DNA from: a virus
Taxonomy: Duplodnaviria; Heunggongvirae; Uroviricota; Caudoviricetes
Strand: one strand, 5' to 3'
IMG/VR virus record: IMGVR_UViG_3300043119_000732
DNA: 64,000 nt
The position numbers and the translations under genes were made by a program. How positions within the stretch are numbered: position 1 is the first letter of the stretch; every line of letters starts with the position of its first letter. Of this stretch, positions 20,125 to 48,727 are shown one piece after another. Below the pieces are notes generated by a model, which saw only the letters and a program-made list of their open reading frames with translations, had not been told where the DNA came from and made no database searches.

Positions 20125-20190
20125 TTTTTAAGTCCAGACAGCAACCATTAAAATACTACAATAAGGTAAATAAATGGACTTAGTTTTTAC

Positions 20191-20266
20191 GATGGTATAG
20201 TGTAAAGGTTTGCACAGAACACTGTCACTGTTCAAGTCGGGGTTCAATTTCCCCGTACCATCGCCA
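20191..20266 (+). tRNA. tRNA-Asp (GTC)
   Basis: Acceptor gatggta/taccatc. Anticodon arm gaaca-ctGTCac-tgttc. T-arm cgggg-ttcaatt-tcccc. CCA encoded. Confidence 0.8.
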
Positions 20267-20273
20267 TTTTTAT

Positions 20274-20347
20274 CCTTCACAGGTGTTATAGTAGCATTTC
20301 CCGTTTGGGGCGGAAAGGACTCGGAGCGTAACCGAGGTGGAGGACCA
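20274..20347 (+). tRNA. tRNA-like gene with non-canonical T-loop (AGCGTAA); anticodon unresolved, possibly TTG
   Basis: 7-bp acceptor ccttcac/gtggagg with one G-U pair. T-arm ctcgg-agcgtaa-ccgag. The 3' end is CCA. Confidence 0.35.
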
Positions 20348-20354
20348 TTTTATT

Positions 20355-20440
20355 ACGGTGTTGGTTAAGCTGGAATTTGGCAGACAGTATGCATTTAGAC
20401 TGCATGAGCCTTGAAGGTTCAACTCCTTCACACCGTACCA
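20355..20440 (+). tRNA. atypical tRNA, apparent anticodon TAG (Leu-like), expanded D region
   Basis: Perfect acceptor acggtgt/acaccgt. Anticodon arm atgca-ttTAGac-tgcat. T-arm gaagg-ttcaact-ccttc and CCA. The D region is about 25 nt and contains ggaatttggcagac, similar to Leu D-arms. Confidence 0.45.
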
Positions 20441-20447
20441 ATTTTAT

Positions 20448-20521
20448 TGAGATGTCGTATAAAAGTATTACCTCGGACTTTGACCCCGAAGAAGTTGGAG
20501 CGTTACCAGCCATCTCAGCCA
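20448..20521 (+). tRNA. tRNA-like gene, apparent anticodon TTG (Gln?), non-canonical T-loop (AGCGTTA)
   Basis: Acceptor tgagatg/catctca. Anticodon loop ctTTGac. T-arm gttgg-agcgtta-ccagc. CCA encoded. Confidence 0.4.
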
Positions 20522-20527
20522 TTTTAT

Positions 20528-20621
20528 AGTCAGGTAATGTAATTGGAAGCATCGACGGCCTTATAAACCGTGAGCACTAGATTGGTGCCGAGCGAGGGTT
20601 CAATTCCCTCCCTGACTACCA
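20528..20621 (+). tRNA. type II tRNA (long variable arm), isotype unresolved (loop ccttataaa)
   Basis: Acceptor agtcagg/cctgact. D-arm atg-taattggaag-cat. Two internal hairpins. Canonical T-arm gaggg-ttcaatt-ccctc. CCA encoded. Confidence 0.5.
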
Positions 20622-20622
20622 T

Positions 20623-20698
20623 GGTAGAGAGGCCGAACGGTTTAGGCAAGAGTTTCATAAGCTCTTATTTGTGAGTTCAAGTCTCACCTCTACCACCA
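20623..20698 (+). tRNA. tRNA-Met (CAT)
   Basis: Acceptor ggtagag/ctctacc. Anticodon arm aagagt-ttCATaa-gctctt. T-arm gtgag-ttcaagt-ctcac. CCA encoded. Confidence 0.7.
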
Positions 20699-20766
20699 TA
20701 TTTAATAATGTAACGGTAAGAACGCTTACAAGTCAATATTTCAGATTAGTTACATCGCCAATTTAT

Positions 20767-20838
20767 TGCAGTGAGGCAGGTTGCCCAAGGAGTCTCATAA
20801 GCTACCTTCTCTGGTTTCGAGTACCAGCGCTGCACCCA
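20767..20838 (+). tRNA. short atypical tRNA with CAT anticodon loop (Met/Ile2-like)
   Basis: Perfect acceptor tgcagtg/cgctgca. Anticodon loop ctCATaa. T-arm ctggt-ttcgagt-accag. CCA encoded. The D region is shortened. Confidence 0.4.
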
Positions 20839-20975
20839 ATTTAAGTTCATCCAGCAATACTAAATGTCATTGAATACAACAAAAAGCTGAACTTAGTAAT
20901 AAAAGTCCGCACAGCAATCAAAAGCAATTGAATATTAATCAATACAAGCTAAAAACGGACTTTGAAATTTTTTAT

Positions 20976-21222: not shown

Positions 21223-21261
21223 CTTTAAGTATATACAGCAAAAATAAAACGCAATCATCAT

Positions 21262-21302
21262 ATACAGATGCTAGTGTGGGTTCAATTCCCACCTCTCCAC
21301 CC
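21262..21302 (+). pseudogene. tRNA 3'-half fragment (T-arm plus acceptor 3' strand plus CCA) with no matching 5' half
   Basis: gtggg-ttcaatt-cccac is followed by ctctcca-c-cca. The complementary tggagag lies 12 nt downstream, not upstream. Confidence 0.4.
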
Positions 21303-21371
21303 AATTTATACTTTATTGGAGAGTAGTGTAACGGTAGCACAGTAAACGCAAAAAATATACTTAGTTTTTTA

Positions 21372-21538: not shown

Positions 21539-21696
21539 ATTTTTGTTCATGTACCAAGCGTACAGTGAGCTTTCGGGTCTGTTATGCAGACCCAGTCTCT
21601 TTATCTAAAGATGCGGGTTCAAGGTCCGCTCCTCTCTTACCCAATAGAACAAGGAGGATAGTTCAACATGGTAGAACATTAGATATAAATTTTTAT

Positions 21697-23489: not shown

Positions 23490-23515
23490 TTTTTATTTCT
23501 TAACTAAATATAATA

Positions 23516-23845: not shown

Positions 23846-23856
23846 TAAATAATTAA

Positions 23857-24189: not shown

Positions 24190-24192
24190 TTT

Positions 24193-24287: not shown

Positions 24288-24295
24288 TTTTTGTA

Positions 24296-24721: not shown

Positions 24722-24906
24722 TCACGTTTAGTTTATTTTTTGAAGCCAATATACATAAAGCTAGACATCCTGGAAGATTTAAAGCAAAGGTAACTAAACG
24801 CTTTGGTAAAGGTAAGATAACTTGTTCTAAAGCAAGATCTTTTACTTCAAGTAGAGACACACTTACTAAGAAACAAGCAAATAGATTTATTAATTACCAC
24901 TGTTAG
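24718..24906 (+). CDS. hypothetical small basic protein
   Basis: 62 aa ORF, K/R-rich. Confidence 0.3.
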   Translation: MITFSLFFEANIHKARHPGRFKAKVTKRFGKGKITCSKARSFTSSRDTLTKKQANRFINYHC

Positions 24907-24929
24907 AAGGAACAAAAATAAAATTTGGT

Positions 24930-25277
24930 ATGGGAAAAGCTAGATACAGATGTCCTTTACTCGATAAACCAAATCAATGGCATGTTGTTCTTGATATAGA
25001 ACAACAACCTTTCAATTGGGTGTATCCAGATTATAAATGTCGACGTCTCTCTGTTACAAAAAAAGATGATGGTACGTACTTACCTTTGGTCAATGGATCT
25101 AATGATTTCCGTAACGTGCCATATGGTGAGACGTTTACAACAAGTAGCTTAGAAGAAGCTCAAAAGTTTTTATTTACATATATAGATAATATAATCGAGA
25201 GAGATAAAAGGCAAGACAAATCTCAATTAAAAGAGTATCTTAAAACGTATGTTGATAGAAAGCTTAAAGAGCAATAA
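24930..25277 (+). CDS. hypothetical protein
   Basis: 115 aa ORF. Confidence 0.4.
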   Translation: MGKARYRCPLLDKPNQWHVVLDIEQQPFNWVYPDYKCRRLSVTKKDDGTYLPLVNGSNDFRNVPYGETFTTSSLEEAQKFLFTYIDNIIERDKRQDKSQLKEYLKTYVDRKLKEQ

Positions 25278-25315
25278 TTTTTAGTAGTCTCTCTGTGCCT
25301 CTCATGCATAATATA

Positions 25316-25343
25316 ATGTAAGTAATTGCGCAATTACTTACAT
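25316..25343. promoter_or_regulatory. perfect 28-nt palindrome (14-bp stem hairpin)
   Basis: atgtaagtaattgc|gcaattacttacat sits between the last protein gene and the next tRNA block. Confidence 0.5.
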
Positions 25344-25378
25344 TATAGCATTGAAGCATAATTCAGGGAGAGTTTATT

Positions 25379-25454
25379 GGGGAGTTAGCTCATTCAGTAG
25401 AGCAATTGCTTTGCAAGCAATAGGTGACCGGAGCAAAGCCGGTATTCTCCACCA
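25379..25454 (+). tRNA. tRNA-Ala (TGC) with non-canonical T-loop (AGCAAAG)
   Basis: Acceptor ggggagt/attctcc. D-arm gctc-attcagtag-agc. Anticodon arm attgc-ttTGCaa-gcaat. T-arm accgg-agcaaag-ccggt. CCA encoded. Confidence 0.6.
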
Positions 25455-25460
25455 CTTTAT

Positions 25461-25536
25461 GTCTCGTTAGTTCAATGGATCAGAACCTTCGGCTACGGAC
25501 CGAACGATGGAAGTTCGACTCTTCCACGGGACACCA
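25461..25536 (+). tRNA. tRNA-Arg (ACG)
   Basis: Acceptor gtctcgt/acgggac. Anticodon arm ttcgg-ctACGga-ccgaa. T-arm ggaag-ttcgact-cttcc. CCA encoded. Confidence 0.75.
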
Positions 25537-25568
25537 CTTTCTCGAAGACTAATTATCTTCGAGTATGT

Positions 25569-25644
25569 TCGATCGTGACGCCGTTTAGTAAGGCAGAGAA
25601 GCTGGCAAAGTGTCTGCCCGCGGGTGCGAATCCCGTCGGTCGAA
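25569..25644 (+). tRNA. tRNA-like gene, isotype unresolved (oversized anticodon-region loop)
   Basis: Acceptor tcgatcg/cggtcga. T-arm gcggg-tgcgaat-cccgt. The central stem gcaga/tctgc encloses a 15-nt loop. No encoded CCA. Confidence 0.3.
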
Positions 25645-25764
25645 CTACAAATTTGAGAATAGAACAATGGTAGGTGAAACCAAGATGTATATCTTTAGAT
25701 TTAAGTCTGTTCTTTCTTTTCAGAAAGTCTAATCACCGATACTACTGAAAAGTTCTCAATTTAT

Positions 25765-25843
25765 GGGGACATCGTCTAAAAACGTAAAGGACATACCTCT
25801 CTCACAGGTAAAATGCCGGCTCGCATTCCGGTTGCCCCCACCA
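25765..25843 (+). tRNA. tRNA-like, apparent anticodon CTC (Glu-like), non-canonical T-loop
   Basis: Acceptor ggggaca/tgccccc with one mismatch. Anticodon arm tacct-ctCTCac-aggta. T-arm ccgg-ctcgcat-tccgg. CCA encoded. Confidence 0.4.
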
Positions 25844-25918
25844 CTTTCTTTCGGCCATCTGGCACCAAGGCATGCTGCCGTTGAGTTCGGCGGATGGAAT
25901 TGCAATCCGAAAGAATAT

Positions 25919-25994
25919 GCACCAGTGACCGGAAAGGCTACGGCTCAGATTGCAACCCTGATTCATGTCGGTTCAAATCCGACCTGGTGCTCCA
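25919..25994 (+). tRNA. tRNA with GCA anticodon (second Cys-like copy)
   Basis: Acceptor gcaccag/ctggtgc. Anticodon arm tcag-ttGCAac-ctga. T-arm gtcgg-ttcaaat-ccgac. CCA encoded. Confidence 0.55.
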
Positions 25995-26297
25995 CTTTCG
26001 GACCAGAATTGAAGCTGGTGGTGTAAACCTTGGAACAACTGAATGACTTCAATTTCAGCCGTATAGGGGAAGAAACTTACCGAAAGCTTTTATCAGGAGA
26101 TGATGTAGTGATTAGCATACTAGGCTGTGAACCTGGGTGGCAGAGTTTGATTCTCTGGCTCCTGACCAATTTGACGGTAATGGCTGAGTTCGACTCAACA
26201 AGGCAAGTCCAGCAGTTCGCCTTCTGTAACCGTAACCTCCAAGCCTTATGGCTTCGGATATGGCCTTCGTTCCGTTCGCCCGATAAGTAACGGATAT

Positions 26298-26374
26298 GCT
26301 CAGGTAGCCCAACGGTAGAGGCGTCGGTCTTAGAAGCCGAATAGTGATGGGTTCAAATCCCTCCCTGAGCACCA
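26298..26374 (+). tRNA. class-I tRNA with TAG anticodon (Leu-decoding anticodon, short variable arm)
   Basis: Acceptor gctcagg/cctgagc. Anticodon arm tcggt-ctTAGaa-gccga. 5-nt variable loop. T-arm atggg-ttcaaat-ccctc. CCA encoded. Confidence 0.55.
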
Positions 26375-29571: not shown

Positions 29572-29868
29572 ATGTCATTTACAAATCTAAACCTTTGTTA
29601 TTCATTTAATCTTATAGCAACAACAGCATTAAAGAAACTGTCTAGCTTTGAATGTAGTGAAATCCTTATAACTAATAAAACAGGTCAAGATATTATTATA
29701 TATGATGCTAATACTACTGACGCTAGTAGATCCTTTCTTTTAGGTAGCCTTGAAGGTGTAGTATTTAGAGGTATTACTAATAGTGATCAATTAAGTGTAT
29801 TAACTACAGCAGGTTCAGGTACAATATATTGTCGCACTGCATATTATAGTAATTTAAATCAGAGATGA
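29572..29868 (+). CDS. hypothetical protein
   Basis: 98 aa ORF that overlaps the next gene by 4 nt. Confidence 0.35.
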   Translation: MSFTNLNLCYSFNLIATTALKKLSSFECSEILITNKTGQDIIIYDANTTDASRSFLLGSLEGVVFRGITNSDQLSVLTTAGSGTIYCRTAYYSNLNQR

Positions 29869-31658
29869 GAATATTTCCTACAGTACCGGGATTTAATGGT
29901 CTAAGCTTTAACAATACCGATGGTGGTATTGGTTACGATGACTATCTTTCTTTAGATTTAAATTTTGCTCTAACAAAAACGTTAGAACCTAGAGTAACAT
30001 TCTCACGCTCAAGTGGAGCAACAAACATCGGCCCTGCAGGTTTGGTTGAGTGGGCTCCTGAGAATCTACTAACACGAAGCGGGGAGTTTAATACCGCGCC
30101 TTGGGCTACATTAAACGGAACTGCGACACCAACTACCGTCTTAGATCCTACCGACGGTCTTGCTGCCTATAGTTTTGTAGAAAACACCGCGAGTGGTAAT
30201 CATCAAATTTTTCAGACACTAAACACCGCCATAGGTGTTCAAACTTTTTCGATCTTTATTAAAGCTGCGGGGCGGACTAGCTGCCAACTTTTGTTGTTTA
30301 ACGCCACTAATGGCAGCTTTGGAAGAGTAAACGTAGACCTAAGCACGGGCGCTTTAAGCTCGGTTATTGGTAGTGCGTCTGTGCAGCAGTTTTCAAACGA
30401 TTGGTGGAGGGTATCCGTTACCGGGACTTCCACTGTTTTGGCTTCAAGTGTAAACATACTCCTTGTTAATAATGATACCACTTCTTATACAGGTAATGGG
30501 GTGTCGGGAGTTTTACTTTATGGTGCACAGATTCAAAGGGGTACATCACCAACTGCATATATAATAACAACTACCTCTGCTGTGTATGGCCCACGATTTG
30601 CACATAATCCCGTTACGCTTGCGTCTCAAGGCCTGCTTATCGAGGAGGCGCGGACAAACCTTTTTGCCAGAAGCGAAGAGTTTAGTGACGCCTACTGGAC
30701 AAAAACAAGGTTGTCGATTTCTGCAAATGCTACAACAGCACCAGACGGGGTGGTTACGGCGGACAAGTTGGTTGAGGACACGTCAACAGGTAGCCATGAA
30801 ATTAGCCGAGCAATAAATGTAACATCTGGGCAAGCATACACGTTTTCTATTTTCATAAAGAAGGCTGAACGATCACGCGTCTCAATGGAGCTTCCGTTTA
30901 GCTTCCCAGCGGGGGCTTCTGCTGTTTTTGACGCGGACGCTGGGACGGTTGTTTCAACGGGGGCGGCTGCAACGGCGTCCATTAGTGCTCTACCCAATGG
31001 GTTTTATCGCTGCGTTCTAACCGCAACAGCAAATGCAACAGCAACCGGAACGCTATACTTAAAGCTGGTTGACACCGGAACTAATACCAGTTACACGGGC
31101 GACGGAACTAGCGGCCTTTTTATTTGGGGAGCGGGCGCGGAAGCAGGGTCGTTCGTAACTTCTTACATCGCTACAACCACCGCATCAGCCACCCGCGCCG
31201 CCGACGTGGCCACGATTACGGGCCCCAACTTCTCATCATGGTTTAAGCAGGCAGCTGGAACCATAGCAGTTAATTATGCCCCGCCACCTATTCCGTTTCC
31301 TTCGTCGCCTCGTTTTGAGTCCGTCTTTAGATTTGGCCCTAGCGCCGAACGCTGGGGCTTACTCAATGGCGGCAGCACTTTGAATTATCAAACTCAGGTT
31401 TTTCGAGGTGGCGTGTTTATCGGATCTAGCGCGGCAGTTCCGCAGTCGTCCAGCATGGCGTATGCCTTTGCGTGGGATGTGTCTGGGCATGCACAATCAT
31501 ACAATGCGACTGCCGCTACGACTAGCTCAGTTTCGCCGACGACAAACGTAAACACGGAGCTTTTGATCGGCACCAGCAATTTGTGCGGCACCATTGCTCG
31601 TATCCGTTTTTACAACCGCCGCTTACCCAACGCTAGCATTCAAATTATCTCAACATGA
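29865..31658 (+). CDS. tail fiber / receptor-binding-like protein with two repeated beta-sandwich-like domains; compositionally foreign (GC-rich) core
   Basis: 597 aa. Two homologous modules (…TASGNHQIFQTL…QTFSIFIKAAGRTSCQ… and …TSTGSHEISRAI…AYTFSIFIKKAERSRV…). GC content rises sharply from about 30000 to 31650 compared with the AT-rich flanks. Confidence 0.5.
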   Translation: MRIFPTVPGFNGLSFNNTDGGIGYDDYLSLDLNFALTKTLEPRVTFSRSSGATNIGPAGLVEWAPENLLTRSGEFNTAPWATLNGTATPTTVLDPTDGLAAYSFVENTASGNHQIFQTLNTAIGVQTFSIFIKAAGRTSCQLLLFNATNGSFGRVNVDLSTGALSSVIGSASVQQFSNDWWRVSVTGTSTVLASSVNILLVNNDTTSYTGNGVSGVLLYGAQIQRGTSPTAYIITTTSAVYGPRFAHNPVTLASQGLLIEEARTNLFARSEEFSDAYWTKTRLSISANATTAPDGVVTADKLVEDTSTGSHEISRAINVTSGQAYTFSIFIKKAERSRVSMELPFSFPAGASAVFDADAGTVVSTGAAATASISALPNGFYRCVLTATANATATGTLYLKLVDTGTNTSYTGDGTSGLFIWGAGAEAGSFVTSYIATTTASATRAADVATITGPNFSSWFKQAAGTIAVNYAPPPIPFPSSPRFESVFRFGPSAERWGLLNGGSTLNYQTQVFRGGVFIGSSAAVPQSSSMAYAFAWDVSGHAQSYNATAATTSSVSPTTNVNTELLIGTSNLCGTIARIRFYNRRLPNASIQIIST

Positions 31659-31900
31659 ACGATTATTGCCTAAAATTTAATTCAGAAGATACATTTATTG
31701 GTATATTACAATCTATTAGTAACCTTGACACTGTAGGAAGTGTAAGCTTCAATCATAAATATGCATTTGATGTTATCGGCAACATCGACGGTGTTGTTGG
31801 GTGGCATGTTAATTTACGTATAATAGATGGTTCAGAACTACCTGAAGTATTTCAGCAATACACCATTACACCAGCAACACCGTGTAGGGTTTGGCTATAA
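31655..31900 (+). CDS. hypothetical protein
   Basis: 81 aa ORF overlapping the previous stop. Confidence 0.3.
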   Translation: MNDYCLKFNSEDTFIGILQSISNLDTVGSVSFNHKYAFDVIGNIDGVVGWHVNLRIIDGSELPEVFQQYTITPATPCRVWL

Positions 31901-31955
31901 TATTTTTAAATCGCGGGAACTTTAATAATATGTTTTTACAACCAAACATATTATT

Positions 31956-32945
31956 ATGGCTCACCATATTACAAAACGAGACAAACAACAAGGCATCAAG
32001 CAAGCTTGGCATGGTCTGACGCAAGTATTAGAACATATCGATCTTGATAATTGCTTTTTATCTGAATGGGAGATTAAATCATCTCGTCTATTCATTGGTG
32101 ATGGTATTGAAACCGATTTTTATATTCTGACTGCAACCGATGATAATAAAGTTATCGGTAAGCCGTTTGCAGAAACTTATAAGCCTATCTCGAATACGCA
32201 GTTTTTGAAGATGATCAAAGATGTGCTTAAAGAGATCGATGGTGCAAAGATTGAATCGGTGGGTTCAGTTTGTAATCGAGGAAGGGTATTTGTATCTATC
32301 TCTCTAAAAGATACATCAGTTTATAAAATCGGTAACAGAGAGTTTAACGACTACTTAAACTTTGGTAATGGTCATGACCAGTCATCTGTTCTCTGGGCAA
32401 ATAATACAAATATATGCACGGTATGCAATAACACATTCTCTGCAAATCTCAATAATAAATCTGGAGATATCAATCTCAGAATCCCTCACAAAGGTAACAT
32501 TGAAGTAAGAATTGAAAACTTTAAAGAGGTTATTGATATTCATCTAGGCTCACAAGCTAATTTCAAGCTTGAATTTGAACGATTGATGGCTGAACCACTT
32601 ACACAGCGTGATGCAAAATATCTATTTACTGGCTGGTTGAACCGTACAACACCTGAAAAAGAACCCTCTACAAAGTTCTTGAACAAGGTAAATCGTCTTA
32701 CTGAACTATTCTCATCTGGTGCTGGTAATCGTGGTGAAAATTGTGCTGATGCATTTAGCGCTGTAACAGACTATTATACTCATGAATCAACACGCGGTAG
32801 TGGTGTTAACGTTGGTGCACAGTTTGTATCATCTGAGTTTGGTCTTGGACGCGCTGCCAAGAATAACTTCTGGGATGTAATCACCGACAAAGATCTAACA
32901 GCTGATTATATTAGCTCAGGAAGTAATATACTTTCTAAGGTATGA
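31956..32945 (+). CDS. hypothetical protein
   Basis: 329 aa ORF. Confidence 0.45.
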   Translation: MAHHITKRDKQQGIKQAWHGLTQVLEHIDLDNCFLSEWEIKSSRLFIGDGIETDFYILTATDDNKVIGKPFAETYKPISNTQFLKMIKDVLKEIDGAKIESVGSVCNRGRVFVSISLKDTSVYKIGNREFNDYLNFGNGHDQSSVLWANNTNICTVCNNTFSANLNNKSGDINLRIPHKGNIEVRIENFKEVIDIHLGSQANFKLEFERLMAEPLTQRDAKYLFTGWLNRTTPEKEPSTKFLNKVNRLTELFSSGAGNRGENCADAFSAVTDYYTHESTRGSGVNVGAQFVSSEFGLGRAAKNNFWDVITDKDLTADYISSGSNILSKV

Positions 32946-33711: not shown

Positions 33712-34097
33712 GATTTACGCAAAAAGTTACAGATGATGCAGTTAAGGACTGTTTAACGGTTGTACCTCCTAATGAATACATAGTTACACTAGTTAATTGT
33801 ACATCTAGAATCGATGATTTTGTTGCAAGTGTTACAGGTAACCCTTATGTAAAAGGTAGCACTTTTTACATGTTAACTAAGCAAGAGATCATACAAAAAC
33901 ATAAGCAGATTTTTATTCAAAATAAAAAAACTAAAGATGTGTTTCAAGGTGTATATGCTCGATCCCTTTTAGGTATATCTGAAGAAACTACAAGAGTAAC
34001 ACCACTACATACCGTAGATTACGATATCTTTATTCAGAGCACATCTTTAAATAGGAAACTTGTATCTGGTACAAAAGTACTTATCATAACCGGATGA
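33708..34097 (+). CDS. hypothetical protein
   Basis: 129 aa ORF. Confidence 0.4.
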   Translation: MRFTQKVTDDAVKDCLTVVPPNEYIVTLVNCTSRIDDFVASVTGNPYVKGSTFYMLTKQEIIQKHKQIFIQNKKTKDVFQGVYARSLLGISEETTRVTPLHTVDYDIFIQSTSLNRKLVSGTKVLIITG

Positions 34098-34507
34098 AAT
34101 ATACACCAGAGAATGTTAATAGGTTAGAACCGAATCAGGTGTTTGTATTCGGTTCTAACCTCGCTGGTAGGCACGGAAAGGGTGCTGCTAAAATTGCACT
34201 TAATAAATATGGTGCAAGATATGGTGTAGGTAGAGGATTACAAGGGCAATCTTATGCTTTACCTACAAAAGACTTTGAAGTAAATACATTATCTCTTGTA
34301 GATATAGAAGCGGAGATCTTTACTTTCTTGAATTTCGCTGACAATAATAGACAGTATGAATTTATTGTTACTAAGATAGGCTGTGGATTAGCTGGTTATA
34401 AAGTGGAACAAATTGCAAAGCTTTTTGCAAAGTGGTGTATTCCAATTAATGTAATCCTTCCAGAGGAATTCTGGAAGGTAATTTTAGAAACAGGAAATAC
34501 AATATAA
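34094..34507 (+). CDS. hypothetical protein with Gly-rich nucleotide-binding-like motif (macro-domain-like?)
   Basis: VFVFGSNLAGRHGKGAAKIALNKYG loosely resembles the macro-domain NAAN…GGGV…AI signature. Weak call. Confidence 0.35.
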   Translation: MKYTPENVNRLEPNQVFVFGSNLAGRHGKGAAKIALNKYGARYGVGRGLQGQSYALPTKDFEVNTLSLVDIEAEIFTFLNFADNNRQYEFIVTKIGCGLAGYKVEQIAKLFAKWCIPINVILPEEFWKVILETGNTI

Positions 34508-35343: not shown

Positions 35344-36918
35344 ATGCTACAATTCAATAAAGTAAATGCTACCCCTGCTAAACTCGATCAATGGGTTCAA
35401 CTTGGTGTAAATGTTCTTCTTATTGGCGAGAAGGGTGTTGGCAAGACACAGCGCGTTATAGATGCATTTAAACGCAATAATCTTAAGTTTGCTTATTTTT
35501 CTGGTTCTACTCTTGATCCTTGGATTCATTTGATTGGTATCCCAAAAGTAAGAGGTGCAGAAGGTCAAGAGAAGATGGATTTTATTCTACCTTCTAACCT
35601 TGATGAAGATATTGAAGCATTATTTATTGACGAATATAATAGAACTCATAAACTTGTAAAGAACGCTCTTCTTGAGCTTCAACAGTTTAAGTCAATTAAC
35701 GGTCGTAAGTTTCCTAAGCTTAAGATGGTTTGGGCTGCTATTAATCCACCTAAGTCTGATAGCGATGCTAACTCACAAGACTATGATGTAGAGCAACTTG
35801 ATCCTGCACAACTCGACCGTTTTCATGTTATTGTTGAGCTTCCAAATGCTCCTGATAAGAAATACTTTGTAGATAAGTATGGTGATCATCATGGTAATAT
35901 TCTTATTAACTGGTGGAAAGATCAATCAGATGATGCTAAGAAGATTCTAAGTCCTCGTAGATTAGATTATATTGGAGAGTTTTTCAATAAAGGAGGAGAT
36001 GTATATGATCTTCTACCGGTATCAGCTAATACAAAAGATCTTGTAACTAAACTTGCTACCAAGAAAGAAGACGCATTGTTACATAGTGTATTTGCTAATC
36101 CTACAGAAGATGTAATGAAGCTATTCTTACTCGGTGATCAGAACTATCTCAAGTATAAGGATAAGTTGAATGAGCCTCGTTTCTGGAAATTCCATAAATA
36201 CCTCAAGCAAGAGTATATCTGTGCTAATATAAAGAATAGTGGTATTTATAAGAACTATGCTATATTACAGGGGTTAAAGAAGGATGTAACCTTTACTGCT
36301 GCAATTACAGCGGTATCAAATTCAACTATGAATAATGATTTATTAAAGGTTCTTAAGCTACTAGAAGCGCAAAATCTCGATATTAGTAAGTTTGAGATTA
36401 CAACTCAATCTACCAACAACCTACTTACATCTTTACCACCTTCAGTCACAACAAACGATTTATTCTCAGTTAATCCTGCTATATTAGTAGCAGGCAAAAC
36501 TAAGAAGATAGATTTTACTGTATATAGAAGTCTAGGTACTAACGTTTATATAAGTCTAATGGAGGACTTAGTTAAGTCTTGGAGTAATGTACCCAATCAT
36601 TATGATGTAATTAACTTTACATGTACTATGGTTGGATCGTTTCAAACCACCACATTTACTAAATATAAATCTAAACTACTACCTCTAATTGGTACATGCT
36701 GTATGTTAGCTAAACAAAAGCTAAATACAGATGAGCAAAAGCAAATAAGATCCCAGATACATATTAATAAGGCTAAGATTGGAGATACACACTATAACGA
36801 ATTTATAAACTATTTACGGGGTGATTCAGATGAAACGAGTGTTATTATATCTGAAGACTTTGAAAAGAAAGTAAACGAGGCTAGTATGCTTGTTGCTCTA
36901 TCTTCTAATATAAAATGA
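35344..36918 (+). CDS. AAA+ ATPase, MoxR/CbbQ/CobS-like (AAA_5 family)
   Basis: Walker A LLIGEKGVGKTQ. Walker B ALFIDE. 524 aa. Followed directly by VWA-domain proteins. Confidence 0.6.
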   Translation: MLQFNKVNATPAKLDQWVQLGVNVLLIGEKGVGKTQRVIDAFKRNNLKFAYFSGSTLDPWIHLIGIPKVRGAEGQEKMDFILPSNLDEDIEALFIDEYNRTHKLVKNALLELQQFKSINGRKFPKLKMVWAAINPPKSDSDANSQDYDVEQLDPAQLDRFHVIVELPNAPDKKYFVDKYGDHHGNILINWWKDQSDDAKKILSPRRLDYIGEFFNKGGDVYDLLPVSANTKDLVTKLATKKEDALLHSVFANPTEDVMKLFLLGDQNYLKYKDKLNEPRFWKFHKYLKQEYICANIKNSGIYKNYAILQGLKKDVTFTAAITAVSNSTMNNDLLKVLKLLEAQNLDISKFEITTQSTNNLLTSLPPSVTTNDLFSVNPAILVAGKTKKIDFTVYRSLGTNVYISLMEDLVKSWSNVPNHYDVINFTCTMVGSFQTTTFTKYKSKLLPLIGTCCMLAKQKLNTDEQKQIRSQIHINKAKIGDTHYNEFINYLRGDSDETSVIISEDFEKKVNEASMLVALSSNIK

Positions 36919-38168
36919 ACTATCAAGAACGGTTAGAAATATCTCAAAAGCTCCAAAGTTATCACTATTTCTTTAGAGCTTTTTGGGATATAGGTAACCC
37001 CATAGTAGGTAAGTTTGATGATTTACCTACTGCTGCGATTACCTTTGATGATCAAGGCAATCATCTTAACTTGATGATAAATGAAGATTTTTGGAATTCT
37101 CTAAACGAAGAAACTAAACTCTTTTTAGTTTGTCATGAGATTTTACACATTCTATTAGAGCATGGTTATAGATTCTCTGAGTATATAGGTACACAAGAAT
37201 TTAGTAATATGAATATAGCTGCCGATGTAGTTATTAACGAGACTTTAGTAAGTTCATTTAGTTTTAAGAGAATTGAACTGAATAATGATCTAAGTGAAAA
37301 AGGTTGCTGGATGGATACGGTATTCAAAAATGATAAAAATTGCTTACCTAATCAATCTACAGAATACTATTTTAATAGACTACCTAAAGATAAAGAGAAC
37401 AAATACTTTGCTATAGACTCTCATAAAGTATTAACTCCCGAACAGCAACAACAGATGAAAGATTTGATAGATGCTTCTGGTATTCTTGATAAACTAGATG
37501 AATCATTTACCAATAAACTACCATCAACTGTTGATACGCAAAAATTAAAGAACTCTGCTGCAGGTAAAGGCACAGGTTCATGGCTTACTGTAAATTCGTT
37601 AAGAAAAAAGAAGTACAAGTGGGAGACTGTTATTAAGAAATGGGAAAGTCAGTTTAATAAAGATACTATCAATACGTTAGAACGATGGGAGAGAGTAACT
37701 CCTAAATACTCTCAATTACTATCTAGTGATATATCACTACCTACTGAGAATTGGATCTTAGATGATTTTAAAGACAATCATAAGATTGATGTATGGTTCT
37801 TTTTAGATACATCTGGTTCTTGTATTGGGTTAAAAGATCGCTTCTTTACTGCTGCACGTAGTTTAAATCCTAATAGGTTTAATGTTCGTTTATTTTGCTT
37901 TGATACCTCTGTTGTAGAGATTGATATCAAACAGAATAAAGTGTACGGCGGTGGAGGTACTTCTTTTAGTATTATAGAATCTAAGATACAAAATACTATT
38001 AAATCTGAAAAGATTAAATACCCTAAAGCTGTATTTTTAATCACTGATGGTTATGGTGATACAGTTAAACCAGAGAAGCCAGAACGTTGGTACTGGTTTT
38101 TATCTGATAATTATAGACATTATATACCAAAAGAGTCTAAAATATTTAAGTTATCTGACTACGAATAA
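36915..38168 (+). CDS. putative metallopeptidase (HExxH) plus VWA (MIDAS) domain protein, MoxR-partner type
   Basis: LVCHEILHILLEH is an HExxH…E motif. The C-terminal FFLDTSGSC is a DxSGS MIDAS motif. Overlaps the upstream ATPase by 4 nt. Confidence 0.6.
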   Translation: MNYQERLEISQKLQSYHYFFRAFWDIGNPIVGKFDDLPTAAITFDDQGNHLNLMINEDFWNSLNEETKLFLVCHEILHILLEHGYRFSEYIGTQEFSNMNIAADVVINETLVSSFSFKRIELNNDLSEKGCWMDTVFKNDKNCLPNQSTEYYFNRLPKDKENKYFAIDSHKVLTPEQQQQMKDLIDASGILDKLDESFTNKLPSTVDTQKLKNSAAGKGTGSWLTVNSLRKKKYKWETVIKKWESQFNKDTINTLERWERVTPKYSQLLSSDISLPTENWILDDFKDNHKIDVWFFLDTSGSCIGLKDRFFTAARSLNPNRFNVRLFCFDTSVVEIDIKQNKVYGGGGTSFSIIESKIQNTIKSEKIKYPKAVFLITDGYGDTVKPEKPERWYWFLSDNYRHYIPKESKIFKLSDYE

Positions 38169-38170
38169 TT

Positions 38171-38380
38171 ATGAATCAAAAACAACAAAGTAAAGAATTA
38201 ACATCGCTTAAAGAGAATTATAGAGCTCATCTGAATTCTCTTATAGAAATTGAAGATAAAGCATGTAAACTACTCAATATTGATCCTAATAACAGTAATG
38301 AATATGATAGTGATTGGGTATTAGATTATCTTAATGGTCATTGCTCACAATCCGTTCTTAGAAAGAAAATTAAACAATGA
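38171..38380 (+). CDS. hypothetical small protein
   Basis: 69 aa ORF. Confidence 0.35.
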   Translation: MNQKQQSKELTSLKENYRAHLNSLIEIEDKACKLLNIDPNNSNEYDSDWVLDYLNGHCSQSVLRKKIKQ

Positions 38381-38616
38381 ATATTGAATTTCTAACACAC
38401 GCACCACCTATTCCAGATTGGTTCGAACGACTTGTATGGTATGAAAATGTTGTGGAAGATATGCCTGGTAAGCCAGGTTGGAAACATCAAGTTACAAAGA
38501 AGATGTTCGAGCCACAGATGGACTATTTAGTCCGCTGGAGATTTGCATATTCTAAAGCTATGCAAGATGAATACAGTAAACGTATTAACGAAAATTTCTT
38601 CAACAAAAGCACTTGA
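38377..38616 (+). CDS. hypothetical protein
   Basis: 79 aa ORF. Confidence 0.4.
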   Translation: MNIEFLTHAPPIPDWFERLVWYENVVEDMPGKPGWKHQVTKKMFEPQMDYLVRWRFAYSKAMQDEYSKRINENFFNKST

Positions 38617-38682
38617 TTAATAAGGAACATATATAAAATAAAACTGAAGTATCGACAGCAAACAAAAAATATACTTAGAATT

Positions 38683-40212
38683 ATGGCAACTAAAAAAACA
38701 ATCAAAAAGACAGCTCCTAAGCAAAACGCACTTATCAGTGCTTTAACTACAGGAGATATCAAGACGCATAATGGTGCGGTAAGTCATTCGACTACTGGTA
38801 CTTCTTTGCTCGATTTTTTTGGTAAAGGTGGTTCAATGCGTTCACAACCAGATGATGCATCTATTACACTTTTCCGCTCCGCTTATAATGAGGATAAGAC
38901 TATCGCTCTTAAGATTCTCTTCTATCTAGTAGATGTACGTGAAGGTCAAGGTGAGCGTAAGCTCTTCCGTAACTGCTTTAAGTGGCTTGCGCAAAACGAT
39001 GAGAAAGTAGCTAAGAACCTCTTGATCCAGATCCCTGAGTTTACTCGTTGGGACAACGTACTTGAGACGCTTGAAGGTACATCTCTTGAAAAAATCGCAC
39101 TTAAATTTGTTGCTGATAAACTTATTGAAGATGCATCTGAAAAGAATCCTTCACTATGTGCTAAATGGGCACCAAGTGAACAGGCTTCATCTTCTGTAAC
39201 CAAACGTCTTGCAAAGAAAGTACGTACTACTTTAGATTACTCTCCAAAGCAATATCGTAAGCTTCTATCAGCTCTTCGTAAAAAGATCGATGTAGTGGAA
39301 CGCAAAATGTGTGTAGGTGAATGGGACAAGATCAATTATCCTGCGGTACCTTCAAAGGCTGCAAGCACTTACCGTAAAGCATTCAAAGAACATGACGGTG
39401 ACCGTTACTCAAAGTTTTTAACTAATGTCGAGAAAGGTGAAGAAAAGATTAACGCTTCAGTATTGTACCCATATGATATTGTACGTTCAGTTCGTAATAT
39501 ACGGTCCGTAGATCGTACTCTAGAGGCCCAATGGAAGGCCTTACCAGATTATCTTGCCGGTAATAAGCATAATGGTATTGTTGTAGCTGACGTTTCAGCT
39601 TCAATGGACTCTTGTAACTATTATAATGCTAATATTGGTAATAACATAGCACCTATTGATGTTGCTGTATCAATTGCAATTTATTTTGCTGAACGAAACG
39701 AAGGTGCATTCAAAGATCATTTTATGATCTTCTCCCATAATGCTAAACTTTTAAAGATTACAGGTACAAGTCTAATACAAAATGTAACTGATGTTCTTGG
39801 TAGACGTGAGGTTGCTAATACTAATCTACAATCTGTATTTGATCTTATACTTGATAAAGGCGTAAGTAATAAAGTGCCGCAATCTGAAATGCCATCCCAT
39901 GTATATATTATCTCAGATATGCAATTTGATTGTGCTACCGGGCCAGACTCTCTTAATAGCGGTGAAGTAACTAATCATGCTGCTATTAAGGCAAAGTACG
40001 CTGCAGCTGGTTACAACGTGCCTCAAATTGTATATTGGAATGTTAACTCTTATAGTGATGTACCGGTTAAATATGACGATAAAGGTACTTGCTTAGTATC
40101 AGGCTGTTCACCTTCAATCTTGAAGAGTGTTTTGTCTAACAAATCAACAACACCTTATAACATGATGATCGATACAGTTTGTAGTGACCGTTATGAAGTA
40201 ATCAAAGCTTAA
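38683..40212 (+). CDS. TROVE-domain / VWA protein, Ro60 (Rsr)-like
   Basis: 509 aa. The N-terminal LLDFFGKGGSMRS resembles the Ro60 FG-x-GG-T/S motif. Central VVADVSASMDS is a DxSxS MIDAS motif. The architecture matches Ro60 (about 530 aa torus plus vWA). Confidence 0.5.
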   Translation: MATKKTIKKTAPKQNALISALTTGDIKTHNGAVSHSTTGTSLLDFFGKGGSMRSQPDDASITLFRSAYNEDKTIALKILFYLVDVREGQGERKLFRNCFKWLAQNDEKVAKNLLIQIPEFTRWDNVLETLEGTSLEKIALKFVADKLIEDASEKNPSLCAKWAPSEQASSSVTKRLAKKVRTTLDYSPKQYRKLLSALRKKIDVVERKMCVGEWDKINYPAVPSKAASTYRKAFKEHDGDRYSKFLTNVEKGEEKINASVLYPYDIVRSVRNIRSVDRTLEAQWKALPDYLAGNKHNGIVVADVSASMDSCNYYNANIGNNIAPIDVAVSIAIYFAERNEGAFKDHFMIFSHNAKLLKITGTSLIQNVTDVLGRREVANTNLQSVFDLILDKGVSNKVPQSEMPSHVYIISDMQFDCATGPDSLNSGEVTNHAAIKAKYAAAGYNVPQIVYWNVNSYSDVPVKYDDKGTCLVSGCSPSILKSVLSNKSTTPYNMMIDTVCSDRYEVIKA

Positions 40213-48414: not shown

Positions 48415-48727
48415 AACAATTTCGGGTGGCTCCTTCGGGAGTATCCAGGCTCAAAGTGAAATCCGGGTCTAAACCGGTCATGCTCAAGTTCAAACTAAGG
48501 CTATTCACTCGAGGCTCAAAACCCGACTAAGAAGGTTCTTTAAAAGATAGTGTCTATTTAAACCAGATGCGGCTGTTCAAATCAGCTCCTGACCCCCAAT
48601 TTCCGGTTAGTATATATGGTCAGGTAACTTAGTGGTAGAGTGCTGGTATTAAGCTAAAAACACAAAGCATTTTAAAGAACAGAGCTAAAAAACGCTCTTT
48701 GTCACATATTATGAAAATATGACAACA

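What the first reader, a model, noticed from the sequence alone, without database searches (positions are those of the whole stretch)
35344..40212. AAA+ ATPase, metallopeptidase-VWA and Ro60-like TROVE-VWA proteins encoded in a row
Three adjacent genes on one strand are: a MoxR/CbbQ-type AAA+ ATPase with Walker A GEKGVGKT; a protein combining an HExxH…E metallopeptidase signature (CHEILHILLEH) with a MIDAS VWA domain (DTSGS), the known MoxR-partner architecture; and a 509-aa protein with a Ro60/TROVE-like N-terminus (LLDFFGKGGSMRS) and a second MIDAS (DVSASMDS). Ro60 orthologs bind tRNA-like Y RNAs and misfolded RNAs, and this phage carries many atypical tRNA-like RNAs. The module could be an RNA/protein quality-control or anti-defence chaperone system. 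It has not been characterised in phages as far as I know.
Basis: partly seen in the sequence, partly recalled or inferred. Interest (0 to 1): 0.7.

Follow-up and report, generated by a model that had tools for sequence, protein, structure and literature searches.

The report
Ro60-like protein beside a MoxR chaperone pair
The three genes are real and correctly typed, but they are two known phage units that sit side by side only in this phage lineage: a MoxR ATPase with its peptidase-vWA partner, and a Ro60-like RNA-binding protein for which I found candidate tRNA-like Y RNA partners elsewhere in the window.

Summary

The three-gene module is not supported. Genes 1 and 2 travel as a pair without gene 3 in RSL1, BCSR5 and LR756511. 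Gene 3 relatives occur in 705 phage records, against 4-6 records for genes 1 and 2. The spacer between gene 2 and gene 3 varies even among close relatives.

Both parts are already described in phages. Iyer 2021 reports the MoxR plus peptidase-vWA pair. Thermus phage phiLo Ro60 is characterised. Bas63 gp130, 38% identical to gene 3, counters the ppl defence.

New here:
- Gene 3 relatives sit next to tRNA arrays or YrlA-like RNAs in distant phage lineages.
- The window holds three permuted tRNA-like, YrlA-type elements (48562-48647, 21267-21346, 21604-21683).
- A covarying hairpin motif occurs only in the tRNA array and directly upstream of gene 3.

Overall this is a new member of known kinds, with moderate interest.

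The parts
35344..36918 (+). Gene 1: MoxR-class AAA+ ATPase (about 240 N-terminal residues) with an alpha-helical C-terminal domain of about 280 aa and unknown role
   Evidence: It carries Walker A GEKGVGKT, Walker B D96-E97, N134 and R159 in 'AQLDRF', and these residues are invariant in 28 homologues. A profile of the homologues hits MoxR 2r44 at E 6e-4. The AF2 model (pLDDT 81) hits NorQ at E 1e-7 (TM 0.6 on the target) and CbbQ2 6l1q. Its own Pfam AAA hits are all below cut-off.
36915..38168 (+). Gene 2: DUF2201_N HExxH metallopeptidase fused to a vWA/MIDAS domain; the partner of gene 1
   Evidence: DUF2201_N scores 6.6e-9 here and is found in 24 of 24 homologues. VWA_CoxE is weak here (E 0.032) and is found in 2 of 24 homologues, best E 6.3e-6. 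H74, E75, H78, H83 and the MIDAS residues D298, S300, S302, T349 and D378 are invariant. The gene overlaps gene 1 by 4 nt. It is paired with a gene 1 homologue in L002, L003, L004, L008 and L010.
38171..38616 (+). Two small ORFs (69 and 79 aa) between gene 2 and gene 3; lineage-specific filler
   Evidence: They have no Pfam or PHROG match. tblastn finds no homologue in any related locus except the identical contig L007.
38647..38676 (+). Covarying hairpin motif, AAGUAU-CGACAGCA...AUACUU(AG), ending 6 nt before the gene 3 start codon
   Evidence: The same motif lies directly upstream of the gene 3 orthologue in L005, L006, L008, L009 and L010, and the distal stem base pairs covary. In L008 and L010 a copy encloses a tRNA-like module.
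38683..40212 (+). Gene 3: Ro60-like RNA-binding protein of the DUF2828/DUF7788 type (helical-repeat TROVE-like domain plus vWA/MIDAS)
48535..48680 (+). winB: YrlA-type ncRNA candidate. A long basal stem is capped by a permuted tRNA-like module (48562-48647). A hairpin follows at 48681-48698
   Evidence: It lies in a 418-nt intergenic gap. Orthologues in L009 (19114-19204) and L010 (13384-13468) share the flanking sequence. RNAalifold on the three predicts the outer, middle and inner stems, T-arm, acceptor-like stem and D-arm, with 16 compensated pairs. The single-sequence fold agrees, z -2.4. The L009 and L010 orthologues hit Rfam YrlA below threshold at 34.4 and 27.5 bits.
21225..21364 (+). 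winC: YrlA-type candidate inside the tRNA array. A 10-bp outer stem of the AAGU/ACUU hairpin motif encloses a permuted tRNA-like module (21267-21346)
   Evidence: Model R1 scores it 47.5 bits, E 3e-10, and it was not in the training set. Its fold shows the outer stem, T-arm, a 7-bp acceptor-like stem and a D-arm. Neither ARAGORN nor Rfam calls a tRNA here. It has the same motif and architecture as the elements directly upstream of gene 3 orthologues in L008 and L010.
21602..21685 (+). winA: a third permuted tRNA-like module in the tRNA array, with weaker support
   Evidence: Rfam YrlA gives 28.8 bits over the full-length model, E 0.0065 in a 10-kb scan. R1 gives 31.7 bits. By eye it has a perfect 7-bp closing stem UAUCUAA/UUAGAUA, a T-arm, a 6-bp acceptor-like stem, a D-arm and a possible A15:U48 pair.
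20130..20962 (+). Three further copies of the AAGU...ACAGCA...ACUU(AG) hairpin motif in the tRNA array (20130-20181, 20843-20894, 20903-20962), two of them just upstream of tRNA genes (before tRNA-Asp and tRNA-Glu)
   Evidence: Found by the motif scan, which gave 20 hits against a shuffle mean of 2.5. The only copy in the window outside the tRNA array is the one upstream of gene 3.

Best explanation
The region holds two separate functional units that are neighbours only in this phage lineage.

Unit 1 is genes 1 and 2. Gene 1 is a MoxR-class AAA+ ATPase. Gene 2 is its cognate vWA/MIDAS adaptor fused to an HExxH metallopeptidase. By analogy with NorQ-NorD and CbbQ-CbbO, the ATPase hexamer engages the vWA protein, which uses its MIDAS site to hold a client protein. 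The fused peptidase suggests that the client is remodelled and cleaved. The client is unknown.

Unit 2 is gene 3, a Ro60-like ring-plus-vWA protein of the DUF2828 type. It belongs with the phage's tRNA and tRNA-like RNA system. I infer that it binds phage-encoded YrlA-type Y RNAs (candidates winB, winC and winA), and possibly the conserved hairpin in its own leader. I also infer that, as for Thermus phage phiLo Ro60 and Bas63 gp130, the resulting RNP modulates host RNA decay or repair and helps the phage resist host defences.

Shown here: the folds, the motifs, the family distributions, and the existence and covariation of the RNA elements. Inferred: RNA binding by gene 3, the identity of its RNA partners, and the physiological role.
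For: Folds and motifs:
- Gene 1 resembles NorQ, CbbQ and MoxR.
- Gene 2 has DUF2201_N and an invariant MIDAS motif.

Independence of the two units:
- The gene 1 + gene 2 pair occurs without gene 3 within 7-8 kb in LR756511, BCSR5 and RSL1.
- Gene 3 relatives are found in 705 phage records, against 4 records for gene 1 and 6 for gene 2 at the same threshold.
- Gene 3 orthologues at 55-71% identity (L005, L006, L009) have no gene 1 or gene 2 within 8-10 kb.
- Where all three co-occur, the spacer between gene 2 and gene 3 is 0.5, 2.1 or 3.1 kb with different genes in it, and in L010 a 441-aa gene separates genes 1 and 2.
- Xanthomonas phage XbC2 has homologues of genes 2 and 3 that lie 23 kb apart.
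- As a proxy, about half of the top 50 gene 1 and gene 2 hits share the same longest-contig length, against 6 shared between gene 1 and gene 3.

RNA link of gene 3:
- In 8 of the 13 loci examined a same-strand tRNA lies within 6 kb, seven of them within 3.5 kb: KVP40, Bas63, UAB_Phi87, Listeria LP-124, Campylobacter CP30A, Bacillus PJN02, L006 and L009.
- A YrlA-type module lies 24 nt upstream in L008, 85 nt upstream in L010 and about 145 nt downstream in mycobacteriophage JoeDirt. The R1 scores are 28.3, 68.6 (L010 was in the training set) and 51.9 bits. The Rfam YrlA scores are 39.3 bits (L010) and 39.8 bits (JoeDirt).
- In Listeria LP-124 the gene is followed by RtcB, a NADAR-type gene and an RNA ligase.
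- Within the window the hairpin motif occurs only in the tRNA array and upstream of gene 3, and it is found upstream of gene 3 in all six members of the clade.

Literature:
- phiLo Ro60 binds two phage-encoded Y-like RNAs and attenuates host PNPase (PMC12135203).
- Bas63 gp130 counters the ppl defence and can be transferred to T7 (10.1101/2024.10.10.617714).
- The MoxR + peptidase-vWA pair is described in jumbo phages (PMC7824862).
Against: - In the window itself no Y-like RNA is adjacent to gene 3. The nearest candidate, winB, is 8.3 kb downstream, and the tRNA array ends 12.3 kb upstream.
- All YrlA matches fall below Rfam's gathering score of 69 bits, and the GNCGAAN0-1G Ro-binding motif of bacterial YrlA is absent.
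- Gene 3 gives no Pfam TROVE hit and no sequence or profile hit to Ro60 in the PDB.
- Genes 1, 2 and 3 do stay in the same neighbourhood and on the same strand in three related phages, so some functional coupling cannot be excluded.
- Three of the four sequences used to train model R1 were picked by a scanner that required base pairing, so the pair statistics are inflated. The RNAalifold result for the three orthologues is the less biased evidence.
Confidence: 0.68

Rival explanations
1. The three proteins form one MoxR-vWA quality-control machine, in which the ATPase remodels both vWA proteins, including the Ro60-like RNP, and the peptidase processes clients.
Against: - The phyletic distributions are independent: 705 records for gene 3 against 4-6 for genes 1 and 2, the pair occurs alone in three jumbo phages, and gene 3 occurs alone in many lineages.
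- The genes between them vary, and one lies on the opposite strand in L010.
- Gene 3 has its own conserved leader hairpin, which genes 1 and 2 lack.
- Bas63 gp130 works alone when moved into T7 or expressed from a plasmid.
Confidence: 0.1
2. Gene 3 is a counter-defence protein that acts by protein-protein contact, using its vWA/MIDAS site to sequester a host defence protein such as ppl. Its Ro60-like ring has lost RNA binding. Its proximity to tRNA genes reflects only shared early or middle expression.
For: The only direct functional data for this sequence family is inhibition of ppl by Bas63 gp130, and no RNA partner was shown there. There is no Pfam TROVE match and the bacterial Ro-binding RNA motif is missing. 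The MIDAS motif is invariant.
Against: - YrlA-type RNAs abut the gene in three lineages, including a distant actinophage.
- RtcB and an RNA ligase are neighbours in Listeria phage LP-124.
- The leader hairpin is shared with tRNA units.
- phiLo Ro60 binds Y-like RNAs (PMC12135203).
Confidence: 0.12
3. The permuted tRNA-like elements are decaying remnants of tandem tRNA duplications, consisting of the 3' half of one copy plus the 5' half of the next. They have no function and no relation to gene 3.
For: A junction between two copies of the same tRNA gives exactly this order of arms. Many weak R1 hits in tRNA arrays are such junctions. The acceptor 3' strand is followed by N-CCA-AUUU, as at real tRNA 3' ends in this array. 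winA and winC lie inside the array.
Against: - winB lies 22 kb from the array in its own intergenic gap. It has a long basal stem and a following hairpin, and it is conserved in three phages with 16 compensated pairs.
- The modules in L008, L010 and JoeDirt are isolated next to gene 3 orthologues with no tRNA within 6 kb.
- The strict scanner gave 6 hits against about 0.1 expected.
Confidence: 0.08

Closest known systems
Ro60/Rsr with YrlA-type Y RNAs (Chen et al. 2014, PMC4201824; Thermus phage phiLo Ro60 with Yrl1/Yrl2, PMC12135203; PDB 9kop, 9l5y, 1yvp, 2nvo)
   Same: The protein has the same two-domain architecture of a helical-repeat ring plus vWA/MIDAS. The associated RNAs have a T-arm, an acceptor-like hairpin and a D-arm closed by a long stem, as in YrlA. 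In relatives the RNA gene abuts the protein gene.
   Different: The sequence family is DUF2828/DUF7788, not Pfam TROVE, and there is no sequence-level hit to any solved Ro60. The RNAs score below Rfam's YrlA cut-off and lack the GNCGAAN0-1G motif. In this window the RNAs are not adjacent to the gene.
Bas63 (Felixounavirus) gp130, a Ro60-like counter of the ppl defence system (bioRxiv 10.1101/2024.10.10.617714)
   Same: It is 38% identical over 490 residues, E 5e-101. It is a large-phage gene associated with a tRNA array. A weak R1 hit (27 bits) lies in the array 1.1 kb downstream.
   Different: gp130 lies 165 nt upstream of the array, whereas gene 3 is 12.3 kb from its array and sits next to a MoxR pair. 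The host and its defence repertoire are unknown for this phage.
MoxR AAA+ with metallopeptidase-vWA pair of group 2.2 jumbo phages (Iyer et al. 2021, PMC7824862); cellular NorQ-NorD and CbbQ-CbbO
   Same: A MoxR-class ATPase is immediately followed by a vWA/MIDAS protein with an N-terminal HExxH peptidase. The pair is conserved in RSL1, BCSR5 and LR756511.
   Different: Gene 1 carries an extra helical C-terminal domain of about 280 aa, and its own Pfam AAA scores are below cut-off. I could not compare it directly with the proteins named in the paper (ASV44729.1 and ASV44728.2). The pair sits among non-structural genes here, which does not obviously fit the proposed role in virion assembly.

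Membership tests
MoxR-class AAA+ ATPases (NorQ/CbbQ/MoxR) | Walker A, Walker B (DE), sensor-1 Asn and the Arg of the 'DRF' motif | tested here: met
   G28-K34-T35, D96-E97, N134 and R159 are invariant in 28 homologues. The alignment to MoxR 2r44 covers the Walker B to DRF region.
MoxR-class AAA+ ATPases (NorQ/CbbQ/MoxR) | Curated Pfam AAA_3 or AAA_5 score above the cut-off | tested here: not met
   AAA_5 scores 14.4 bits against a cut-off of 22. Some homologues carry precomputed PF07726 or PF07728 domains.
MoxR-class AAA+ ATPases (NorQ/CbbQ/MoxR) | Fold closest to MoxR-family structures | tested here: met
   The first 15 Foldseek hits are NorQ chains plus CbbQ2 6l1q, with E from 1e-7 to 6e-6 and TM about 0.6 on the target.
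MoxR-class AAA+ ATPases (NorQ/CbbQ/MoxR) | Adjacent gene for a vWA/MIDAS partner | tested here: met
   Gene 2 overlaps gene 1 by 4 nt. The pairing is kept in 5 other loci.
DUF2201-type metallopeptidase-vWA proteins | DUF2201_N above the cut-off, with HExxH | tested here: met
   It scores 36.2 bits against a cut-off of 23.2. H74, E75 and H78 are invariant, and 24 of 24 homologues match.
DUF2201-type metallopeptidase-vWA proteins | C-terminal vWA domain with a MIDAS motif (DxSxS...T...D) | tested here: inconclusive
   The MIDAS residues D298, S300, S302, T349 and D378 are invariant. However, VWA_CoxE scores only 14 bits against a cut-off of 26.4, 2 of 24 homologues match it at E 0.01 or better (best 6.3e-6), and no structure model was made.
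Ro60 / TROVE proteins | Pfam TROVE (PF05731) or sequence similarity to solved Ro60 proteins | tested here: not met
   There is no TROVE hit. Neither phmmer nor the profile search hits any Ro60 in the PDB.
Ro60 / TROVE proteins | Helical-repeat ring followed by a vWA/MIDAS domain (fold) | tested here: met
Ro60 / TROVE proteins | A Y RNA partner encoded nearby | tested here: inconclusive
   No Y RNA lies within 8 kb of gene 3 in the window. YrlA-type modules abut the orthologues in L008, L010 and JoeDirt, and three candidates lie elsewhere in the window.
Ro60 / TROVE proteins | Binding of Y RNA and misfolded RNA | not testable with these tools
   This needs EMSA or RIP.
DUF2828/DUF7788 family (PHROG 850, 'Ro-like RNA binding protein' of phage annotators) | Both Pfam domains above their cut-offs, over the full length | tested here: met
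   DUF2828 scores 135.5 bits, DUF7788 scores 150.9 bits and PHROG 850 scores 3e-139. Mycobacteriophage homologues are annotated 'Ro-like RNA binding protein'.
YrlA (Rfam RF02553) | Score at or above the gathering threshold (69 bits) | tested here: not met
   winA scores 28.8 bits, winB gave no hit at E 5 or better in its region, and winC gave no hit at E 10 or better. The L010, L009 and JoeDirt elements score 39.3, 34.4 and 39.8 bits.
YrlA (Rfam RF02553) | Architecture: basal stem formed by the 5' and 3' ends, then T-arm, acceptor-like hairpin and D-arm | tested here: met
   RNAalifold on the winB, L009 and L010b orthologues recovers all of these helices with 16 compensated pairs. winC and winA show the same arms.
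YrlA (Rfam RF02553) | GNCGAAN0-1G Ro-binding motif in the basal stem | tested here: not met
   The motif is not present in winA, winB or winC on reading the sequences. The type-A elements (winC and the modules in L008, L010 and L006) instead share a conserved AAGU...ACAGCA...ACUU(AG) hairpin motif.

The most novel reading that the evidence does not exclude
The AAGU...ACAGCA...ACUU(AG) hairpin is the binding site of the DUF2828-type Ro60-like protein. Some copies enclose a tRNA-like module and some do not, and the motif is found only in the tRNA array and in the gene 3 leader. On this reading the protein marks, protects or processes each unit of the phage tRNA array, and autoregulates its own mRNA through a Y-RNA-like leader. 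Ro60-like proteins would then be dedicated organisers of phage tRNA arrays. That would explain why the gene tracks tRNA arrays across unrelated large phages and why it defeats host defences.
Probability: 0.15. Interest if true: 0.7.

Novelty: new member of a known kind. Interest (0 to 1): 0.4.

Why it matters
The three-gene module as proposed is not a new system. Each part is already described in phages, and the juxtaposition is specific to this lineage.

The useful result is the RNA side. DUF2828-type Ro60-like genes track tRNA arrays or YrlA-like RNAs in very different large phages. This uncultured phage clade offers concrete, covariation-supported Y-like RNA candidates and a shared hairpin motif. 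These give testable ligands for a protein family whose only known phenotype is defeating the ppl defence, by an unknown mechanism.

Tried and rejected
Searches that found nothing useful:
- Megablast of the locus against phage records gave no match.
- phmmer of each protein against PDB sequences gave nothing useful.
- The gene 3 and gene 2 profiles against the PDB gave nothing.
- Rfam at gathering thresholds found only tRNAs and a tmRNA, with no Y RNA.
- Rfam in E-value mode around gene 3 (26-46 kb) and over 46-64 kb gave no Y RNA hit. winB was missed.
- KVP40 and L006 gave no YrlA hit at E 1 or better.
- An exact-pattern scan of IMG/VR for the winA module gave 0 hits.
- The search for related loci with the 267-aa ORF inside the tRNA array returned only distant loci.
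- NCBIfam and PADLOC gave no hit for any of the three proteins.

Method problems:
- MAFFT misaligned winA, so it was left out of the model.

Ideas considered and set aside:
- The AAGU/ACAGCA motif as a plain sigma-70-like promoter. This does not explain the covarying distal stem pairs, although a promoter-associated role is not excluded.
- The permuted modules as two-piece tmRNA genes. This was rejected because the segment after the D-arm is too short for a tag reading frame.
- PHROG 1314's label 'HNH endonuclease' for gene 2. This was rejected because every homologue matches DUF2201_N.

Full report
**Observation.** The window has three + strand ORFs at exactly the stated coordinates: 35344-36918 (524 aa), 36915-38168 (417 aa) and 38683-40212 (509 aa). 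All the quoted motifs are in their translations. Two details differ from the finding. Genes 1 and 2 overlap by 4 nt. Genes 2 and 3 are separated by two small ORFs (38171-38380 and 38377-38616) that match no family. The region has about 34% GC and lies 12 kb downstream of an array of 24 tRNA genes that also contains a full-length tmRNA. No phage record is similar at the DNA level. The identical proteins occur on metagenomic contigs of up to 209 kb.

**Gene 1.** Pfam gives only sub-threshold AAA hits (MCM, AAA_5, AAA_7 and AAA, E 0.02-0.07). PHROG 1297 'ATPase' scores 1.6e-12. Among 1311 homologues, some carry precomputed AAA_3 or AAA_5 domains, and sources name two of them MoxR ATPases. In an alignment of 28 homologues the Walker A motif, D96-E97, N134 and the R159 of 'AQLDRF' are invariant. 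The profile of that alignment hits the MoxR protein 2r44 at E 6e-4, across the stretch from Walker B to DRF. The AlphaFold model has pLDDT 81. Its first ~260 residues match NorQ hexamers and NorQ-NorD complexes (E 1e-7, TM about 0.6 on the target) and the CbbQ2 Rubisco activase. Gene 1 is therefore a MoxR-class AAA+ ATPase. It has an extra helical C-terminal domain of about 280 residues whose role is unknown.

**Gene 2.** DUF2201_N, a putative metallopeptidase domain, scores above its cut-off (6.6e-9). VWA_CoxE is weak (E 0.032). PHROG 1314 scores 2e-35 over the full length and is labelled 'HNH endonuclease'. That label looks wrong, because all 24 aligned homologues match DUF2201_N and two match VWA_CoxE (best E 6.3e-6). 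H74, E75, H78 and H83 are invariant, and so is a complete MIDAS signature (D298, S300, S302, T349, D378). The vWA assignment therefore rests on the motif and on the weak Pfam hits.

**Gene 3.**
- Pfam gives DUF2828 (3e-39) and DUF7788 (4e-44), and no TROVE hit.
- PHROG 850 'RNA-binding protein' scores 3e-139.
- Neither the single sequence nor a 39-sequence profile finds any Ro60 in the PDB by sequence.
- The AlphaFold model has pLDDT 82 and pTM 0.78.
- Foldseek matches the model over its full length to the Ro60 of Thermus phage phiLo (9kop at E 4.9e-9, and 9l5y) and to Xenopus Ro60 (E about 1e-6).
- The MIDAS residues D303, S305, S307, T380 and D412 are invariant.

Gene 3 has the Ro60 architecture, but it belongs to a separate sequence family.

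**Is it one module?** The evidence says no.
- tblastn finds gene 3 relatives in 705 phage records. These include Felixounavirus, KVP40-like vibriophages, Listeria, Staphylococcus, Campylobacter, Enterococcus and Bacillus phages, and mycobacteriophages in which the gene is annotated 'Ro-like RNA binding protein'. The same search finds gene 2 in 6 records and gene 1 in 4.
- In LR756511 (595 kb), Burkholderia phage BCSR5 and Ralstonia phage RSL1, homologues of genes 1 and 2 are adjacent and no gene 3 relative lies within 7-8 kb.
- Gene 3 orthologues at 71%, 64% and 55% identity (L009, L005, L006), and the KVP40 homologue, have no gene 1 or gene 2 nearby.
- The three genes co-occur only in the closest relatives, and there the spacing is not fixed. 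It is 0.5 kb with two ORFs in the window. It is 2.1 kb with five genes, including a NADAR gene, in L008. It is 3.1 kb including an opposite-strand gene in L010, where a 441-aa gene also separates genes 1 and 2.
- Xanthomonas phage XbC2 has homologues of genes 2 and 3 that lie 23 kb apart.
- As a rough proxy, about half of the top 50 gene 1 and gene 2 hits share the same longest-contig length. Only six contig lengths are shared between the gene 1 and gene 3 hit lists, and these six gene 3 hits range from 100% down to 55% identity.

Genes 1 and 2 are therefore a conserved pair, and gene 3 is an independent gene.

**What is already known.**
- Iyer et al. 2021 describe in group 2.2 jumbo phages a MoxR AAA+/vWA chaperone-cochaperone pair in which the vWA protein carries an N-terminal metallopeptidase. 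They propose a role in virion assembly. They also note ROT/TROVE proteins in a subset of jumbo phages (PMC7824862).
- Hu et al. 2025 solved the phiLo Ro60 structure. They showed that it binds two Y-like RNAs encoded upstream of its gene and, together with them, attenuates host PNPase (PMC12135203).
- Chen et al. 2014 found YrlA RNAs, which have a tRNA-like domain, next to Ro60 genes in bacteria and mycobacteriophages (PMC4201824).
- I confirmed that gp130 (MZ501086, 80319-81734) is 38% identical to gene 3 (E 5e-101) and lies 165 nt upstream of 25 tRNA genes.

**Gene 3 relatives track tRNA and tRNA-like RNAs.** I examined 13 loci.
- Eight have a same-strand tRNA within 6 kb of the gene. The distances are Bas63 and UAB_Phi87 0.17 kb, Bacillus PJN02 0.17 kb, L006 0.55 kb, Listeria LP-124 0.6 kb, Campylobacter CP30A 0.7 kb, KVP40 3.4 kb and L009 6 kb.
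- In Listeria LP-124 the gene is followed by RtcB, a DUF1768/NADAR gene and an RNA ligase. This recalls the cellular rsr-rtcB operon.
- Three of the remaining loci have instead a YrlA-type element right beside the gene (see below).
- The window is the outlier, with 12.3 kb to the nearest tRNA.

**Y-like RNAs.**
- Rfam in E-value mode gave one sub-threshold, full-length YrlA match inside the tRNA array: winA, 21583-21705, 28.8 bits, E 0.0065.
- Reading the sequence showed a circularly permuted tRNA-like module. It has a closing stem UAUCUAA/UUAGAUA, a 4-nt variable loop, a T-arm, an acceptor-like stem closed by a loop, U8-A9 and a D-arm.
- A scanner written for this arm order found six such modules in about 340 kb of held sequence, all on the coding strand. 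Twenty shuffles gave 2 hits in total.
- One of them, winB (48562-48647), lies in a 418-nt intergenic gap 8.3 kb downstream of gene 3.
- winB has orthologues in L009 and L010 with conserved flanks. RNAalifold, run without constraints on the three, predicts an outer stem, a middle helix, an inner stem, the T-arm, the acceptor-like stem, the D-arm and a trailing hairpin, with 16 compensated pairs.
- I built a covariance model, R1, from four modules. Three of the four had been selected for base pairing, so the pair counts are biased.
- R1 found winC (21267-21346, 47.5 bits, E 3e-10, not in the training set) and rescored winA at 31.7 bits.
- It also found a module 24 nt upstream of the gene 3 orthologue in L008, one in the L006 array, and a weak one in the Bas63 and UAB_Phi87 arrays.
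- In mycobacteriophage JoeDirt it found a clean module about 145 nt downstream of the DUF2828 gene (51.9 bits). Rfam YrlA gives 39.8 bits there.
- The L010 module that lies 85 nt upstream of its gene 3 orthologue scores 39.3 bits on Rfam YrlA, E 3.3e-5.
- All of these scores are below Rfam's gathering score of 69 bits, and the bacterial GNCGAAN0-1G motif is absent.
- In several elements the acceptor 3' strand is followed by N-CCA-AUUU, as at the real tRNA 3' ends of this array. This suggests processing like that reported for M. smegmatis YrlA. That step is an inference.
- Many weak R1 hits in tRNA arrays are plain tRNA-tRNA junctions and should be ignored.

**A shared hairpin motif.** The elements of the winC type are enclosed by a stem of the form (U/G)AAGU-NN(N) ... 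N'N'(N')-ACUU-AG, with ACAGCA just inside the 5' strand.
- A scan for the motif gave 20 hits in the held sequence, against a shuffle mean of 2.5 and a maximum of 7.
- The window has five copies, all on the + strand. Four are in the tRNA array: 20130-20181 before tRNA-Asp, 20843-20894, 20903-20962 before tRNA-Glu, and the copy around winC. The fifth is at 38647-38676 and ends 6 nt before the gene 3 start codon.
- The motif lies directly upstream of the gene 3 orthologue in all six clade members. The distal stem pairs covary (UAU/AUA, UGU/ACA, UCC/GGA, UGC/GCA, UAG/CUA). In L008 the hairpin directly upstream of the gene encloses a tRNA-like module. In L010 a second copy just upstream (9817-9931) encloses one, while the copy next to the gene does not.
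- The window's copy looks like the L008 element with the module deleted.
- Genes 1 and 2 have no such hairpin.
- Its function is unknown. It could be a processing site, a protein-binding stem or a promoter-associated element. A plain promoter would not explain the covariation.

**Conclusion.** The finding joins two known phage units.
- The MoxR plus peptidase-vWA pair most likely works as a client-remodelling and client-cleaving chaperone. Its client is unknown. Its location among non-structural genes (an A1S_2505-family protein, an IMPDH/GMP-reductase-like enzyme, YopX and DUF932) does not particularly favour the published idea of virion assembly.
- Gene 3 is a Ro60-like protein of the DUF2828 type. 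It is tied to the phage's tRNA and Y-like RNA system by gene neighbourhood in many lineages and by a shared cis motif. Its likely role is in RNA surveillance and counter-defence.
- RNA binding, the partner RNAs and the phenotype are inferred, not shown.

Noticed in passing
window 22387-22774 (+): A full-length tmRNA gene (Rfam RF00023, 133.9 bits) is embedded in the phage tRNA array. The relative L006 also has one at 16253-16645.
   Followed up: no
window 18922-26374 (+): The array holds 24 tRNA genes by ARAGORN. Rfam calls three further tRNA-like sequences that ARAGORN misses (20448-20518, 22099-22174, 25765-25840). Several tRNAs are unusually long, at 93-95 nt (Tyr, Ile-tat, Ser).
   Followed up: partly
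L006 11787-12152 and L018 4426-4977: A GOLLD RNA (172 bits, above threshold) sits in the tRNA array of a related ~210-kb phage. A ROOL-like RNA (87 bits, just below threshold) sits in the Listeria phage LP-124 array about 1 kb upstream of its DUF2828 gene. Large ornate RNAs thus share the neighbourhood of the Ro60-like gene.
   Followed up: no
L006 15989-16220: There are three tandem tRNAs with the anticodon CTA, which reads the amber codon (ARAGORN labels them Pyl). This hints at stop-codon suppression or recoding in that related phage.
   Followed up: no
window 36915-38168; PHROG 1314: PHROG 1314 is labelled 'HNH endonuclease', and the label has spread into GenBank records (for example Erwinia phage Kaldavass and Acinetobacter phage XC38). 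All 24 aligned homologues of gene 2, which matches PHROG 1314 over its full length, match the DUF2201_N metallopeptidase and carry a MIDAS motif. The label looks wrong.
   Followed up: partly
L008 8662-9201, L010 8721-9215, L006 1231-1743, L018 10341-10844: A NADAR/DUF1768 gene recurs within a few kb of the DUF2828 gene in four phages. RNA ligase or RtcB genes accompany it in L006 and Listeria LP-124. No NADAR match was found among the ORFs flanking gene 3 that were scanned in the window.
   Followed up: no
L010 4334-5659: A 441-aa gene with no family match is inserted between the gene 1 and gene 2 homologues in one relative. The pair therefore tolerates interruption.
   Followed up: no
window 34094-34507 (+): This ORF encodes an A1S_2505-family phage non-structural protein (NCBIfam NF049995, 1.1e-42), two ORFs upstream of gene 1. 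It gave no Pfam match.
   Followed up: no
window 30001-32000: This is a GC-rich island (0.47 against about 0.34 elsewhere). It covers most of a 597-aa ORF (29865-31658) that has no Pfam match. The other GC peak, at 20-22 kb, is the tRNA array.
   Followed up: no
H93, Salmonella phage 7t3 (MK773491.1) 173169-174620: The DUF2828 homologue in this 349-kb phage is annotated 'structural protein'. If that annotation rests on virion proteomics, the Ro60-like protein may be packaged in the virion.
   Followed up: no
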